From: a virus
UHGV virus genome: UHGV-1978634
Strand: one strand, 5' to 3'
DNA length: 39,633 nucleotides
The notes under the pieces were generated by a model that was not told the origin of the DNA, did no database searches, and was given only the letters and a program-made list of their open reading frames with translations. The position numbers were made by a program, and so were the translations under genes. Positions 35,094 to 38,832 of this stretch are shown here, one piece after another (the first letter of the stretch is position 1; the number at the start of each line of letters is the position of its first letter).

Positions 35094-35168
35094 TTTTTAT
35101 TTGGGTCAGTCGTATAAAGGTCATTACGGAAGGCTGTTAACCTTCTTATCGTGGTTCGAGTCCACGCT
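35094..35168 (+). tRNA. tRNA-Asn (anticodon GTT)
   Basis: Manual cloverleaf: acceptor gggtcag/ctgtccc (one mismatch), anticodon stem gaagg/ccttc, loop ctGTTaa, T-arm cgtgg-ttcgagt-ccacg, 3-prime gcca. Confidence 0.7.
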
Positions 35169-35173
35169 GTCCC

Positions 35174-35249
35174 GCCAAATATGCTGGTTTAGCTCCAATG
35201 GTAGAGCAGTCGCCTTGTAAGCGAATGGGTAGCGGTTCAAGTCCGTTAA
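35174..35249 (+). tRNA. tRNA-Thr (anticodon TGT)
   Basis: Manual cloverleaf: acceptor gctggtt/aaccagc, D-arm gctc-caatggta-gagc, anticodon loop ctTGTaa, T-arm agcgg-ttcaagt-ccgtt, 3-prime acca. Confidence 0.8.
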
Positions 35250-35500
35250 CCAGCACCATAACTGAGCCGTAGCCACTGGCTATCCTGAATTCATCAGTGA
35301 TAGTTACGCTGCGGCCTTCTACACATGACCTTCGTGAAAGCGGGTGGCAAGAGGTTGCGCTAACAACCTCCTGCCGTTTTGCCCGTGCATATCGGTCACG
35401 AACAAATCTGATTGCTAAACACAGTAGCCTGGATTTGTTCTATCAGTAATCGACCTTATTCCTAATTAAATAGAGCAAATCCCCTTATTGGGGGTAAGAC

Positions 35501-36284: not shown

Positions 36285-36748
36285 GCAGAGTAACCGCGAT
36301 TATCTCCGCTCTGGTTATCTGCATCATCGTCTGTCTGTCATGGGCTGTTAATCATTACCGTGATAACGCCATCGCCTACAAAGAACAGCGAGATAAAAAA
36401 GTCAGTGAGCTGAAGCAGGCGACCGCCACCATTACTGACATGCAGCAGCGCCAGCGTTCTGCTGATGCACTCGATGCTAAATACACGAAGGAGTTAGCTG
36501 ATGCGAAAGCTGAAAATGATGCTCTTCGGCGCAAGCTTGATAATGGTGGTCGGGTGTTCGTCAAAGGAAAATGCCCTATGCCATCCTCAGCCGAAACCTC
36601 CAGCGCCTCCGGCATGGGCAATGATGCCACCGTCGAACTCTCTCCAGTTGCTGGACGAAACGTTCTCGGTATCCGGGACGGAATCATCAGCGACCAAACA
36701 GCACTGAGAACGCTTCAGGAATACATCAGGACGCAATGCCTTCGATGA
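36281..36748 (+). CDS. Rz: Rz inner-membrane spanin
   Basis: 155 aa; N-terminal TM segment then coiled-coil. Confidence 0.85.
36501..36707 (+). CDS. Rz1: Rz1 outer-membrane lipoprotein spanin, embedded in Rz in the +1 frame
   Basis: Lipobox ..VVGCSS.. and proline-rich [11 protein letters not shown] segment. Confidence 0.7.
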
Positions 36749-36923
36749 TAGCGATAATTTTACTCATCATCCTTCACATCTGGCTCTGTAGACAGGGTGG
36801 TGATCACTTCTGGAGTAAATCCAGATTAAACATCTCATTGCTGATGCTTGATATTGAGCATCTGGCGCGCAGTAAGGGGCTGCGTTGAGATAAGAGCCAG
36901 TTCATTACAAATACCAGGATTTA

Positions 36924-36946
36924 GCCTCGCATTCGCGGGGCTTTTT
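36924..36946 (+). terminator. Candidate rho-independent terminator
   Basis: gcctcgc-attc-gcggggc hairpin followed by T5. Confidence 0.45.
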
Positions 36947-37087
36947 ATATCTGAATTTCACAGCGCATCTCACGCGCATATTAACGAGAGCCTTTCAGTA
37001 AGCGAGCCTGAGAAATGCCGTTATAGGTGGCGACCTCTCTCGGGCGGCTTTTCTGTGAGACAGGCTCACTTTCTAAAAGGTAAAAAC

Positions 37088-37609
37088 GCTATGAATCATC
37101 AATTGGCTAATCTCGATTTCCGGGACATGGTGGTTGTTTCTGGTGATCGCGTGATCACAACCTCCCGCAAGGTAGCAGCTTACTTCGACAAGCAGCATCA
37201 CCACATCATTCAGAAAATCGAAAAGCTAGACTGTTCGGATGAATTTCTAACCAGCAACTTTTCGCGGGTTACCTATGAACACAAGGGTAATCAGTATGTT
37301 GAATATGAAATTTCCAAAGACGGCGCGATGTACATCATCATGTCGTTTACCGGCAAAAAAGCTGCCGCCATCAAAGAGGCGTTTATCAAAGCATTTAATT
37401 GGATGCGTGACAGGCTGATGGAGATGGCTCACTCATACCAAAGAGAGCACAACGAGTTAATGCTGGAGTTCATGAAGGAAAAGGATGTTGCCAGTATGTC
37501 AGGACGCTTGCTGAACCGCTGGGGCAGGATCAAAAAACCGCAACTCATAGCAAGAATCGAAAGGCTTGAGCAGCAGGCGCAAATATCGATCCCCGGACTG
37601 CCAAAGTGA
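37088..37609 (+). CDS. rha: Rha-family phage regulatory protein
   Basis: ORF 36848..37609; ATG at 37088; ..DFRDMVVVSGDRVITTSRKVAAYFDKQHHHIIQKIEKL.. typical Rha N-terminus. Confidence 0.7.
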   Translation, partial: AMNHQLANLDFRDMVVVSGDRVITTSRKVAAYFDKQHHHIIQKIEKLDCSDEFLTSNFSRVTYEHKGNQYVEYEISKDGAMYIIMSFTGKKAAAIKEAFIKAFNWMRDRLMEMAHSYQREHNELMLEFMKEKDVASMSGRLLNRWGRIKKPQLIARIERLEQQAQISIPGLPK

Positions 37610-37962
37610 CCATTCCAAAGCCCATCTACGGGTGGGCTTGATAATGAAACCGTGATTTACATCCCCACAATCCGGGTATGTAAAAGATAGTTCAGGCGAG
37701 AACAGATTTAACTAAATCTGTGCACCACCAGTTGCGGCAGTACAGCGAAACAACCCAAGCCAGTAAGTGGGGAAATAACACTGGCAGCCACTGAAAGATG
37801 AACCTCCTGCCTTATGGCAAAAAAAGATTCTTTTTGGTGGCGGACTGATGGAAAGACATCGGTTATTGCAGAGGCCATTCAATGAGTGGTCTCGACAATG
37901 GCTTATACCCTACACGGGATAACTTAACTGATATCCCTTTTAACGGATAAACGGAGCCAACA

Positions 37963-38205
37963 ATGGCAGAGATTATTCCCATGACTGAAGAACAGAAATT
38001 CCAGCTAGAGATTTACAAACTGGTCATGAACCAGAACGCAGCCGCAGAGGAAGCATTTCAGTTCATTGGTACTGACGAACTGAAGCTTGAACTGTTCAAA
38101 ATTCACTTCCAGTCAGGCGGCGCTAATTCAGATATCACGATCCGCACATTCGAAGCGGTGCGTAAATCGAAGGAAGCGTTAGACCTGTTCACCACCGGAG
38201 CATGA
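37963..38205 (+). CDS. Hypothetical protein (80 aa)
   Basis: GGAG RBS 6 nt upstream of ATG. Confidence 0.5.
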   Translation: MAEIIPMTEEQKFQLEIYKLVMNQNAAAEEAFQFIGTDELKLELFKIHFQSGGANSDITIRTFEAVRKSKEALDLFTTGA

Positions 38206-38206
38206 T

Positions 38207-38386
38207 GTGAGCCGCGTAATCAATTTGGGTAAGGAGAAGAAATTCCCAATTACTCAAGAGCTATACGAGCGGCTGGAAAGCGTCATCCATGATTACGATG
38301 GTGAAATCAGTTTATGCGAGGCGATTGGTACACTCGAATTGCTGAAGCAGTCACTGATTGAAGGCGCGAAAGAGTCCTCAGCCTGA
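38207..38386 (+). CDS. Hypothetical small protein (59 aa, GTG start)
   Basis: Open frame directly after the upstream stop; weak. Confidence 0.25.
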   Translation: MSRVINLGKEKKFPITQELYERLESVIHDYDGEISLCEAIGTLELLKQSLIEGAKESSA

Positions 38387-38409
38387 AATGACAATTAAGT
38401 GAGATGAAT

Positions 38410-38832
38410 ATGGCGACTGAACCAAAAGCTGGTCGCCCCTCTGATTATATGCCGGAGGTGGCTGACGATATCTGCTCGTTGCTTTCTTCTGGCGAAAGTT
38501 TGCTGAAAGTATGTAAGCGTCCTGGTATGCCGGATAAGTCCACTGTTTTCCGCTGGTTGGCAAAGCATGAGGATTTTCGCGACAAGTACGCGAAGGCAAC
38601 TGAGGCACGAGCTGATTCTATTTTCGAAGAGATATTCGAAATTGCTGACAATGCGATTCCAGATGCTGCTGAGGTGGCAAAGGCAAGACTTCGCGTTGAT
38701 ACCCGCAAATGGGCGCTGGCCCGAATGAATCCCCGTAAGTATGGCGACAAGGTAACAAACGAGCTTGTCGGCAAAGACGGCGGCGCAATCCAGATTGAAA
38801 CATCACCGATGAGTACTCTATTCGGAAAATGA
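38410..38832 (+). CDS. Terminase small subunit (Sf6 gp1-like)
   Basis: ORF 38404..38832; MATEPKAGRPSDYMPEVADDICSLLSSGESLLKVCKRPGMPDKSTVFRWLAKHEDFRDKYAKATEARADS.. matches the Sf6 small terminase as I recall it. Confidence 0.9.
   Translation: MATEPKAGRPSDYMPEVADDICSLLSSGESLLKVCKRPGMPDKSTVFRWLAKHEDFRDKYAKATEARADSIFEEIFEIADNAIPDAAEVAKARLRVDTRKWALARMNPRKYGDKVTNELVGKDGGAIQIETSPMSTLFGK

What the first reader, a model, noticed from the sequence alone, without database searches (positions are those of the whole stretch)
37610..37962. About 350 bp of apparently non-coding sequence in a compact late region
No ORF with a credible RBS on either strand lies between rha and the next gene; a hairpin sits at its start (agccca-N8-tgggct, about 37619-37640). 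In a tightly packed phage genome this could hold a small RNA, a packaging or regulatory site, or a decayed gene.
Basis: seen in the sequence. Interest (0 to 1): 0.35.

Follow-up and report, generated by a model that had tools for sequence, protein, structure and literature searches.

The report
Unannotated structured RNA in phage late operon
The "empty" 353 bp between rha and the packaging genes of this P22/Sf6-like phage holds a roughly 130-nt pseudoknotted RNA module, a short, so far unannotated relative of the uncharacterised Proteo-phage-1 RNA; it is also present in P22, HK97, HK022, Sf6, HK620 and about a fifth of complete E. coli genomes.

Summary
Positions 37610-37962 carry no conserved ORF, and the hairpin is real (37617-39). 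The hairpin is not the main feature, though.

The centre of the gap (37734-37865, + strand) is a discrete conserved module with mosaic flanks. It matches the conserved core of Rfam Proteo-phage-1 (RF03044): the hairpin loop AAGCCRGnnAGUG and the tail AACACYGGCAGCC. The two differences are compensatory in a predicted pseudoknot. It also shares a 3' motif absent from the Rfam model, GGCNGAC plus a GAAAGA-capped hairpin.

The Rfam model scores it only 18.7 bits (threshold 42) and misses the relatives, which probably explains why no listed record labels it as an RNA.

The non-coding stretch is about 5-fold less diverse than synonymous sites of the neighbouring gene. Sf6 gene 66 and the P22 pid moron are inserted just 3' of the module, and the window has the empty site.

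Function is unknown. My best guess is an autonomous folded RNA released from the late transcript. The main rival is a cis-acting read-through leader.

It is a new, compact variant of a known orphan RNA class. Decayed gene and packaging site are not supported.

The parts
37091..37609 (+). rha (left flank of the gap). It is a moron flanked by CATT(A/C)CAAA repeats at about 36904 and 37611.
37617..37639 (+). It is a 'boundary' hairpin (ATTcCAAAGCCC...GGGCTTGATAATG), present in 79 of 110 related loci, with no U-tract. Paralogous to H2, and to a third copy after Sf6 gene 66.
   Evidence: (I11)
37656..37721 (+). Variable module with two hairpins (37656-37684 and 37702-37721). It is present in only 34 of 110 related loci and is not part of the conserved RNA.
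   Evidence: (I16, I18)
37734..37865 (+). Conserved RNA module (the enteric, compact Proteo-phage-1-like RNA). Homology to relatives starts and stops at its ends, while the flanks are swapped.
37754..37772 (+). P2: CCC/GGG stem closing the invariant loop AAGCCAGUAAGUG (37757-37769).
37759..37785 (+). Predicted pseudoknot helix GCCAGU (37759-64) : ACUGGC (37780-85). It reads GCCGG:CCGGC in the Pseudomonas members, a compensatory A-U to G-C exchange.
37787..37841 (+). P3: long hairpin closed by GCC:GGC (the closing helix seen in most other family members inspected). It has an internal loop holding ACCUCCU (37802-08), an apical GCC-UUAU-GGC, and an A-run at 37819-25.
37839..37862 (+). 3' motif GGCGGAC plus P4 hairpin CUGAUG-GAAAGA-CAUCGG. 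Shared with Pseudomonas types A and C and not covered by the Rfam model.
37871..37893 (+). H2: second boundary hairpin (GAGGCCA...UGGUCUC). The moron insertion hot spot lies around it: Sf6 gene 66 enters after 37860, and P22 pid enters at about 37910-37921.
   Evidence: PMC3573128
37916..37941 (+). H3: terminator-like hairpin GGGAUA..UAUCCC followed by UUUU, just upstream of the DUF2560 ribosome-binding site. Its 10-nt loop is too long for the scan tool.
   Evidence: (I3)
37953..38205 (+). Ribosome-binding site (GGAG at 37953-56) and the DUF2560 gene (P22 orf80 / HK620 hkbM homologue), the right flank of the gap.

Best explanation
The gap is not empty. Its centre (37734-37865, + strand) encodes a compact structured RNA, transcribed as part of the Q-dependent late transcript. 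It is a shortened enterobacterial-phage relative of the Proteo-phage-1 RNA family.

Predicted fold (inferred from comparison across the family):
- a 3-bp stem (P2) presenting the invariant loop AAGCCAGUAAGUG;
- loop bases GCCAGU pairing with ACUGGC 3' of the stem, giving an H-type pseudoknot with an A-rich linker;
- directly abutting, a long hairpin (P3) closed by GCC:GGC;
- then GGCGGAC and a GAAAGA-capped hairpin (P4).

Mechanism (inferred, not shown): I think it most likely works as an autonomous folded RNA module rather than as a regulator of the adjacent gene. It would be released from the long late transcript, with the flanking boundary hairpins A and H2 as plausible processing or protection points. 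It would then act through its invariant pseudoknot core on a conserved host or phage factor, as a protein-binding or decoy RNA.

The reason is that homologous modules occur in very different transcriptional settings: as the late-operon leader of Pseudomonas prophages, as a terminator-ended RNA after a chromosomal metallothionein gene, in a phage early region with tRNAs embedded in a variable stem, after a gene that looks by eye like a capsid gene, and in an integrative conjugative element.

Rough odds: identity as a structured RNA homologous to Proteo-phage-1 about 0.9; trans-acting stable RNA about 0.4; cis read-through or attenuation leader about 0.25; self-processing about 0.1.
For: Sequence match to the family
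- The Rfam Proteo-phage-1 model hits 37726-37789 (+), the most conserved spot of the gap. The score is 18.7 bits, with E = 2.2 over 4227 families, i.e. about 5e-4 for that one family in 1.8 kb.
- By my count on the alignment, the window matches about 26 of the roughly 29 strongly conserved consensus positions in the two blocks (my count). The G-to-A and C-to-U differences pair with each other.
- The combined motif occurs once in the window and in 0 of 100 shuffles. A looser version found only 40 places in 596 Gb of genomes, about 31 of them family members by inspection.

Support for the fold across the family
- P2 covaries: CCC/GGG, CACUG/CAGUG, CGGGG/CCCCG, CACCG/CGGUG, CGUCG/CGGCG, UGGAC/GUCCA, GGCGG/CCGCC, CAGCGAC/GUCGCUG, ACACC/GGUGU.
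- An independent 3' motif, GGCNGAC N4-5 GGAAAGAC, occurs once in the window (37839-57; 4e-4 expected). All 128 copies in 1.4 Mb of loci lie 47-93 nt 3' of the 5' motif.
- An HMM built only from Pseudomonas sequences puts its top window hit at 37838-58 on the + strand.
- The extended structure in Pseudomonas members has 91.8% of cells paired and 15 pairs with changes on both sides. Its covariation score is 0.331, against 0.185 in shuffles (0 of 500 reach it) and at most 0.137 when the partners are slid. Many G-U pairs fix the strand.

The module behaves as a unit under constraint
- At least 4 alternative upstream and 5 alternative downstream sequences start at its ends.
- Nucleotide diversity is 0.018-0.025 in the module and 0.019 in 37866-37962, against 0.105 at third codon positions of the adjacent DUF2560 gene.
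- Within the enteric set, the stem changes seen keep pairing (U-G to U-A, G-U to G-C). Most variation lies in loops.

Context of other members
- NinG, then phrog_3412 or phrog_3373, then the RNA with an intrinsic terminator, then holin.
- After a metallothionein gene; tRNA inserts; an ICE; after a capsid-like gene.
Against: - The Rfam score is far below the gathering threshold. The model reports nothing for the HK97, P22, HK620 and Sf6 loci at E <= 10.
- A small covariance model of the 3' domain built from Pseudomonas sequences gave only E = 0.43. The HMM hit alone is E = 0.11, with a second hit elsewhere in the window at E = 0.13.
- P1 of the family is reduced to a 2-3 bp hairpin, and P2 is only 3 bp.
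- Within the enteric set there is no double-sided compensatory change. Twelve loci carry an A.C mismatch in the pseudoknot helix.
- Folding energy of the module alone is unremarkable and similar on both strands (z = -2.3 and -2.05).
- No promoter-like site precedes the module. No transcript ends have been mapped. None of the BTP1 prophage ncRNAs whose coordinates I could read in the paper's supplement (STnc6000-6050) lies at this site.
- High conservation could partly reflect recent horizontal spread.
- The trans-acting mechanism is inference from context only.
Confidence: 0.55

Rival explanations
1. Cis-acting leader. The RNA acts on the polymerase or transcript that makes it, like a put, EAR or nut antitermination element or an attenuator. 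It would control read-through of the downstream terminator-like hairpin H3, and of terminators brought in by morons, into the DUF2560-terminase-head genes.
For: In Pseudomonas prophages the homologous RNA lies between the gene in the Q position and the holin, immediately followed by a strong intrinsic terminator that late transcription must pass. Several minimal members are followed by a hairpin plus U-run and then a ribosome-binding site and ATG. In the window, H3 plus UUUU (37916-41) precedes the DUF2560 ribosome-binding site, and 37866-37962 is as conserved as the module. P4 with its purine-rich GAAAGA loop resembles a boxB-type hairpin; this is a resemblance from memory, not tested.
Against: Q-modified polymerase already ignores terminators, so no extra element should be needed here (established lambda biology). 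The chromosomal Pseudomonas copies end in a terminator with no obvious co-oriented gene behind them. The genes downstream of family members have nothing in common: holin, DUF6948, a tiny hydrophobic ORF, DUF2560, a GcrA-like protein. Morons are inserted between the module and H3 in Sf6 and P22.
Confidence: 0.25
2. Recombination linker only. The stretch is a set of 'boundary sequences' kept because they mediate module exchange between lambdoid phages. Its conservation would reflect recent spread, with no RNA function.
For: Mosaic joints fall exactly at the ends of the module and at hairpins A and H2. rha is flanked by CATT(A/C)CAAA repeats. The Sf6 record annotates 'boundary sequences' nearby. 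There is no double compensatory change within the enteric set.
Against: The same core motifs, with covarying stems, occur in Pseudomonas, Stutzerimonas, Acidithiobacillus and metagenomic members that share no flanking DNA with enteric phages. Diversity is 5-fold lower than at adjacent synonymous sites in the same 44 haplotypes.
Confidence: 0.08
3. Coding remnant or small protein. The gap would be a decayed gene, or would encode a short peptide such as P22 'orf25' or ST64T 'orf-118'.
For: Some records annotate small ORFs over part of it. Relatives carry real genes in the gap, namely Sf6 gene 66 and P22 pid.
Against: The A-run length polymorphism and the alternative 3' continuations break every frame. 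There is no ribosome-binding site before the candidate ATGs. The genes in relatives are insertions beside an intact module, not intact versions of the window sequence. The conservation pattern follows stems and loops, not codons.
Confidence: 0.03
4. Double-stranded DNA site, such as a pac- or cos-accessory site or a protein operator.
For: It lies just upstream of the packaging genes and is strongly conserved.
Against: It is present with unrelated packaging systems: HK97 cos/HNH versus P22, Sf6 and HK620 headful packaging. Family members lie far from any terminase. The helices use G-U pairs that would be A.C on the other strand.
Confidence: 0.04

Closest known systems
Proteo-phage-1 RNA motif (Rfam RF03044; I attribute it from memory to the Weinberg et al. 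2017 set of 224 candidate RNAs, PMC5737381, whose held text does not name it)
   Same: Conserved loop AAGCCRGnnAGUG in a hairpin, tail AACACYGGCAGCC with pseudoknot potential, phage context, same strand logic. Bona fide members score 70-86 bits and share with the window a 3' motif that lies outside the Rfam model.
   Different: The window scores 18.7 bits against a threshold of 42. P1 is almost gone and P2 is cut to 3 bp. The linker is 7 nt instead of 14-20 nt. The multi-helix middle domain of the Pseudomonas forms is replaced by one long hairpin. The module is embedded in the late operon downstream of the lysis genes rather than ahead of them. The function of the family is unknown, so kinship does not give a mechanism.
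Lambda 6S RNA and StxS (short PR'-tR' leader RNAs of lambdoid late operons; PMC7547250)
   Same: The Pseudomonas type A members occupy exactly this position: after the gene in the Q slot, ending at an intrinsic terminator, before the holin. StxS shows that such a leader can also act in trans.
   Different: In the window the element lies about 2.5 kb downstream of the position I infer for the late promoter (upstream of the tRNA pair at 35103-35258), after the lysis genes and rha. It has no promoter-like site or strong terminator of its own. 6S and StxS are not pseudoknotted conserved folds. No Rfam sRNA family matched.
HK022 put RNA and Bacillus EAR (RNA elements that make RNA polymerase terminator-resistant)
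   Same: Structured RNA inside or at the head of a long operon, upstream of terminators. EAR also sits in an intergenic gap in the middle of its operon. This is from my own knowledge of the literature.
   Different: No sequence or fold similarity was tested or seen. put has two plain stem-loops and no pseudoknot. HK022 itself carries this element in its late region in addition to put. No read-through activity has been shown.
P22 pid moron locus (Cenens et al. 2013, PMC3573128)
   Same: Same intergenic region, described there as lying between 'orf25' and orf80 and as a site where relatives carry no insert or another insert. The window is an empty-site version.
   Different: That work concerns the inserted, oppositely transcribed pid gene. 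In the passages of that paper that I read, the conserved module directly 5' of the site (P22 40181-40320) is not described, and 'orf25' overlaps hairpin H2.
GOLLD and ROOL large phage-associated RNAs
   Same: Orphan structured RNAs of phages and prophages, often next to or enclosing tRNA genes. Type B members here carry tRNAs inside a variable stem.
   Different: Those RNAs are several-fold larger and have unrelated sequence and fold. No Rfam match.

Membership tests
Proteo-phage-1 RNA (RF03044) | Covariance-model score at or above Rfam's gathering threshold (42 bits) | tested here: not met
   18.7 bits at 37726-37789 +. No hit at gathering threshold. Relatives in HK97, P22, HK620 and Sf6 are not reported at E <= 10.
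Proteo-phage-1 RNA (RF03044) | Hairpin (P2) presenting the conserved loop (AU)AAGCCGGnnAGUG | tested here: met
   CCC-AAGCCAGUAAGUG-GGG at 37754-37772. The stem covaries across the family.
Proteo-phage-1 RNA (RF03044) | Conserved 3' tail AAaAACaCCGGCAGCC, able to pair with the loop (pseudoknot) | tested here: met
   AAAUAACACUGGCAGCC at 37773-37789. GCCAG:CUGGC against GCCGG:CCGGC is a compensatory exchange. Twelve enteric loci have an A.C mismatch.
Proteo-phage-1 RNA (RF03044) | 5' hairpin P1 (GCCAGGG...CCUGG) | tested here: not met
   Only a 2-3 bp hairpin (GC..GC here, CGG..CCG in most relatives) at 37734-37747.
Proteo-phage-1 RNA, extended architecture defined here | Closing helix GCC:GGC, then GGCNGAC, then a GAAAGA- or GNRA-capped terminal hairpin | tested here: met
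   37787-89 pairs with 37839-41, and P4 lies at 37845-62. The regex is unique in the window and always lies 3' of the 5' motif in the loci. The top HMM hit falls here but is only E = 0.11. The CM test was inconclusive at E = 0.43.
   The stem is present (37617-39) but is followed by GAUAAUG. The terminator scan finds none in the gap on the + strand.
Protein-coding gene or pseudogene | A reading frame conserved among relatives, with a ribosome-binding site | tested here: not met
   ORFs are 56 aa or shorter. The A-run indel and the alternative 3' continuations break the frames. Diversity does not follow codon periodicity.
Known phage or enterobacterial sRNAs (StxS, STnc100, AgvB, AsxR, DicF, IsrK and the rest of Rfam 15) | Match to the family's covariance model | tested here: not met
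   No family other than tRNA reaches threshold in the window. Only chance-level hits occur in the gap. The BTP1 ncRNAs whose coordinates I could read (STnc6000-6050) map elsewhere. The Pas sRNA paper places those sRNAs next to the holin/lysozyme operon and near Q.
Processive antitermination RNAs (put, EAR) | Promotes read-through of downstream terminators in cis | not testable with these tools
   Only positional analogy is available.

The most novel reading that the evidence does not exclude
The module would be the enterobacterial representative of a widespread class of autonomous RNAs of phages and mobile elements. Their invariant pseudoknot core would have a biochemical activity of its own, such as a new self-cleaving or processing ribozyme, an RNA that reprograms RNA polymerase, or a decoy for a conserved host (possibly defence) factor. 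It has sat unnoticed in the late operons of P22, HK97, HK022, Sf6 and HK620.
Probability: 0.2. Interest if true: 0.85.

Novelty: new variant of a known kind. Interest (0 to 1): 0.6.

Why it matters
P22, HK97, HK022, Sf6 and HK620 are among the most studied temperate phages, yet no record or paper I could search describes this conserved module as an RNA. It is present in 206 phage records and in 1120 of 5426 complete E. coli genomes.

Linking it to Proteo-phage-1 does two things. First, it gives an orphan RNA class its first genetically tractable hosts: P22/Salmonella and HK97/E. coli, where point and compensatory mutants are easy to make. Second, it shows that the Rfam model covers only the 5' third of a larger RNA and misses a whole enteric subtype, so the family is under-annotated.

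It also clarifies the layout of a known moron insertion hot spot (pid, gene 66, rha). The morons land on either side of a constrained RNA module.

Tried and rejected
- Promoter and terminator scan of 36700-38500: no promoter-like site, and no + strand terminator in the gap.
- Rfam at gathering threshold on the whole window: only two tRNAs.
- Rfam at E <= 10 on the HK97, P22, HK620 and Sf6 loci: the element is not detected.
- Small covariance model of the 3' domain built from 14 Pseudomonas sequences: the window hit was fragmentary, E = 0.43, so inconclusive.
- 5'-domain covariance model: not built, because MAFFT put the P2 strands of types A and C out of register. I counted pairs with scripts instead.
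- In one search I set the pseudoknot columns one position off. Those 5 pairs are uninformative there anyway, being invariant in that set.
- Literature: no paper holds 'Proteo-phage-1' or 'RF03044'. The 2017 paper's supplement is not held. The BTP1 prophage ncRNAs whose coordinates I could read (STnc6000-6050) and the Pas sRNAs as described are at other places. Transcriptome papers gave nothing for this site.
- ACCUCCU in the P3 internal loop as an anti-Shine-Dalgarno sequence pairing with the DUF2560 ribosome-binding site: dropped, because about 5 of 32 enteric variants change it.
- Folding energy of the module alone does not separate the strands.
- Packaging-site and decayed-gene readings were rejected (see rival explanations).

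Full report
WHAT THE WINDOW IS

The window is a P22/Sf6/HK620-like lambdoid phage (Lederbergvirus).
- Its closest records are Escherichia phages APC_JM3.2 and JEP4, at 98% identity over the query.
- Around the finding the gene order is lysozyme, Rz, a gene-65-like ORF, rha (37091-37609), the gap, a DUF2560 gene (37963-38205; P22 orf80, HK620 hkbM), an hkbN-like gene, and the Sf6-type small terminase from 38404.

THE OBSERVATION

The gap is 353 bp.
- The only ORFs in it are 56 aa or shorter.
- None is conserved. The A-run at 37819-25 has 7 A here and 6 A in nearly all relatives. Everything 3' of 37860 is replaced by at least five unrelated continuations in other phages.
It lacks a U-tract.

The gap is conserved at 90-98% identity in 206 phage records. 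These include HK97, HK022, HK620 and Sf6, plus P22 for the part 37735-37921. Almost none of these records annotates anything there.

ANATOMY FROM COMPARISON

I mapped 110 related loci onto the window and read the alignment. The gap is modular.

| Segment | Coordinates | Present in |
|---|---|---|
| Hairpin A | 37611-37659 | 79 of 110 loci |
| Variable two-hairpin piece | 37660-37727 | 34 of 110 loci |
| Core | about 37734-37860/65 | all (the loci were retrieved by a motif in it) |
| Insertion hot spot | about 37860-37884 | - |
| Conserved 3' stretch | 37884-37951 | about 100 of 110 loci |

- At least four different sequences abut the 5' end of the core and at least five abut its 3' end. The core therefore behaves like a gene-sized unit that is retained while its neighbours are exchanged.
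- Sf6 and IME10 carry gene 66 inserted right after GACAUC, which ends at 37860.
- In P22, rha ends at 40180 and the core follows immediately (40181-40320). The oppositely transcribed pid moron is inserted at about window 37910-21. Cenens et al. describe this site as 'between orf25 and orf80', where relatives have no insert or another insert (PMC3573128).
- The window has the empty site.

WHAT THE CORE IS

An Rfam scan of the region gave one weak hit in the most conserved spot: Proteo-phage-1 (RF03044) at 37726-37789 on the + strand. It scored 18.7 bits against a gathering score of 42. The E-value was 2.2 for 4227 families, which is about 5e-4 for that single family.

I took the positions where the window and the Rfam consensus agree as a pattern. 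Scanning viral, genome and metagenome collections with it returned two kinds of sequence.
- Many enteric copies.
- G+C-rich sequences from Pseudomonas, Stutzerimonas and metagenomes. These are bona fide Proteo-phage-1 members, scoring 70-86 bits.

The window shares the loop AAGCCRGnnAGUG and the tail AACACYGGCAGCC with these members. Its two differences from the consensus (G to A in the loop, C to U in the tail) pair with each other in a helix GCCRG:CYGGC. This gives an H-type pseudoknot that the Rfam structure line does not draw.

The stem that closes the loop (P2) covaries freely across the family. Observed forms are CCC/GGG, CACUG/CAGUG, CGGGG/CCCCG, CACCG/CGGUG, CGUCG/CGGCG, GGUUCG/CGAACC, UGGAC/GUCCA, GGCGG/CCGCC, CAGCGAC/GUCGCUG and ACACC/GGUGU.

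The combined motif is highly specific.
- It occurs once in the window and in 0 of 100 shuffles.
- A looser form found only 40 places in 596 Gb of genomes. About 31 of these are family members by inspection.

THE FAMILY IS LARGER THAN ITS RFAM MODEL

In the Pseudomonas members, conservation continues for 100-180 nt beyond the 82-nt model.
- The GCC at the end of GGCAGCC pairs with a distal GGC, closing a domain of one to four helices.
- Then come GGCNGAC and a hairpin capped by GAAAGA. Minimal forms have GAAA or GUAA instead.
- The RNA often ends in, or is followed by, an intrinsic terminator.

On 16 Pseudomonas sequences this structure has 91.8% of cells paired and 15 pairs with changes on both sides. 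Its covariation score is 0.331, against 0.185 in shuffles (0 of 500 reach it) and at most 0.137 for slid partners. Many G-U pairs fix the strand.

The window has the same 3' motif at 37839-57: GGCGGAC-UGAU-GGAAAGAC.
- It is unique in the window, with 4e-4 expected from composition.
- All 128 occurrences in 1.4 Mb of fetched loci lie 47-93 nt 3' of the 5' motif.

This motif was not part of the retrieval pattern or of the Rfam model, so it is independent evidence of common descent. The formal tests of it alone are weak, and I report them as such.
- An HMM built from Pseudomonas sequences only ranks 37838-58 first in the window, but at E = 0.11. A second hit elsewhere has E = 0.13.
- A 35-position covariance model gave a fragmentary hit at E = 0.43.

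The enteric form is a compact version of the family.
- P1 is nearly lost and P2 has 3 bp.
- The linker is 7 nt.
- One long hairpin (P3, 37787-37841) replaces the multi-helix middle domain.
- P4 lies at 37845-62.

EVIDENCE OF CONSTRAINT IN THE ENTERIC FORM

Among 44 distinct haplotypes that are contiguous from the core through the DUF2560 gene, nucleotide diversity was as follows.

| Region | Diversity |
|---|---|
| Core | 0.018-0.025 |
| 37866-37962 | 0.019 |
| DUF2560 codon position 1 | 0.039 |
| DUF2560 codon position 2 | 0.015 |
| DUF2560 codon position 3 | 0.105 |

The non-coding stretch therefore changes about five times more slowly than neighbouring synonymous sites.

In 32 diverse enteric sequences the P2 loop, the pseudoknot strands, the P4 stem and the P4 loop are invariant, apart from one variable loop position (U or A) and the C variant in the pseudoknot's 3' strand noted below. 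Changes in P3 keep pairing (U-G to U-A, G-U to G-C). Most variation sits in loops, in the A-run and in the 5' mini-hairpin.

Weak points:
- There is no double compensatory change inside the enteric set, because it is too uniform.
- Twelve loci have an A.C mismatch in the pseudoknot helix.
- The folding energy of the core alone is unremarkable on both strands.

The core occurs in 1120 of 5426 complete E. coli genomes (1220 places) and in 17 plasmid or phage-plasmid records. Every listed row shows 'none' annotated.

CONTEXT OF THE FAMILY AND WHAT IT SAYS ABOUT MECHANISM

- **Type A (Pseudomonas prophages).** The order is NinG, a protein of unknown function in the Q position (phrog_3412 or phrog_3373), that gene's terminator, the RNA with its own strong terminator, then a lambda-S-type holin. 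This is the position of lambda's PR'-6S-tR' leader.
- **Type C (the P. brassicacearum and related isolates returned by the scan).** A chromosomal copy lies directly after a metallothionein gene and ends in a terminator.
- **Type B (Stutzerimonas and metagenomic phages).** The copy lies among small ORFs, with an Erf-like recombinase a few kb away in one locus (assigned by eye). It has a long covarying stem holding variable inserts, some of which look like tRNAs by eye.
- **Other members.** One follows a gene that looks by eye like an HK97-type capsid gene. One precedes a GcrA-like gene (also by eye). One lies in an Acidithiobacillus ICE between a relaxase-like gene and a ParB-like gene (both assigned by eye).

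The neighbouring genes have nothing in common. That argues against a gene-specific riboswitch or operator. It argues for a self-contained RNA that works wherever it is transcribed.

I therefore favour an autonomous folded RNA, with odds of about 0.4. Its 3' end would be set by a terminator where one is present. Where it is embedded, as here, it would be released by processing, with hairpins A and H2 flanking the module. It would act through its invariant pseudoknot on a factor common to these hosts.

The main rival, at about 0.25, is a cis-acting read-through or attenuation leader.
- For: the type A arrangement; the hairpin-U-run-SD-ATG layout of minimal members; and, in the window, hairpin H3 plus UUUU (37916-41) before the DUF2560 ribosome-binding site.
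- Against: Q-modified polymerase does not need such help; the chromosomal copies have no obvious downstream gene; and morons sit between the module and H3 in Sf6 and P22.

None of these mechanisms is shown. No transcript ends are known for this site. I found no paper that mentions the element.

COMPARISON WITH WHAT IS KNOWN, AND VERDICT

By the family's conserved sequence and structure features, the element is a relative of Proteo-phage-1. By Rfam's score threshold, and by the P1 feature, it is not a member. I file it as a new, compact enteric subtype of a known but uncharacterised RNA class.

It is not any curated sRNA family. It is not one of the BTP1 ncRNAs whose coordinates I could read, and the Pas sRNAs are described at a different location.

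The packaging-site and decayed-gene options are not.

Noticed in passing
window 36900-36915 and 37611-37620; Sf6 locus L002 about 2215-2265: rha is bracketed by CATT(A/C)CAAA. Three related hairpins of the form ATTACAAAGCC-loop-GGCTTTGATAATG (hairpin A, H2, and a copy after Sf6 gene 66) sit at moron junctions. This looks like a reusable insertion or recombination cassette boundary.
   Followed up: partly
window about 37860-37921; L002 (Sf6) 1783-2163; L165 (P22) about 1690-2330: Different morons occupy the same spot in relatives. Sf6 and IME10 have gene 66 after 37860. P22 has pid (opposite strand, PMC3573128) at about 37910-21. Phage Gally has an extra roughly 240 bp. The window has the empty site.
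   Followed up: partly
L003 (HK97) about 1850-1900: HK97 keeps the whole non-coding stretch plus only the first roughly 25 codons of the DUF2560 gene, joined to the start of its HNH endonuclease gene. This is a visible recombination scar between P22-like and HK97-like packaging modules.
   Followed up: no
L016, L035, L040, L126, L147 (Pseudomonas prophages): Two protein families of unknown function (phrog_3412 and phrog_3373) occupy the Q (late antiterminator) position between NinG and the RNA-terminator-holin unit. They are candidates for a late regulator that works with or on this RNA.
   Followed up: partly
L019, L094, L190 and others (type B); L023: Sequences that look like tRNAs by eye, or other variable inserts, lie inside a long covarying stem (GCAUCGGAG...CUCCCCGAUGC) of the Stutzerimonas and metagenomic type B RNAs. 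In L023, Rfam finds two tRNAs directly after the RNA. If the type B inserts are tRNAs, their processing would split the RNA into two base-paired pieces.
   Followed up: no
L125, L128, L130, L132, L135, L139, L149, L152, L156, L157, L159: A chromosomal copy (type C) lies right after a prokaryotic metallothionein gene in many Pseudomonas of the brassicacearum/fluorescens groups. It ends in a terminator and is followed by REP-like palindromes. It may be a domesticated or 3'UTR-type RNA.
   Followed up: partly
window 37802-37808: ACCUCCU, resembling the anti-Shine-Dalgarno end of 16S rRNA as I recall it, sits in the internal loop of P3. It is not strictly conserved: about 5 of 32 enteric variants change it.
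   Followed up: partly
window 35103-35258: tRNA-Asn(GUU) and tRNA-Thr(UGU) lie 5 nt apart, upstream of the lysis genes. The BTP1 prophage has the same tRNA pair between Q and the holin (PMC6333337 supplement).
   Followed up: no
window 36923-36942 and 36991-37080: An intrinsic terminator (AGCCTCGC..GCGGGGCT + TTTTT) precedes rha. A 20-nt inverted repeat (36991-37010 / 37061-37080) spans the rha 5' leader up to its ribosome-binding site. This suggests rha is an independently controlled moron.
   Followed up: no
window 35161-35179 (- strand): The 3'-domain HMM built from Pseudomonas RNAs also hit TTTGGCGgGACAGCGTGGA on the complement of the tRNA-Asn region, at E = 0.13. This is probably chance, but it shows how weak that test is on its own.
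   Followed up: no
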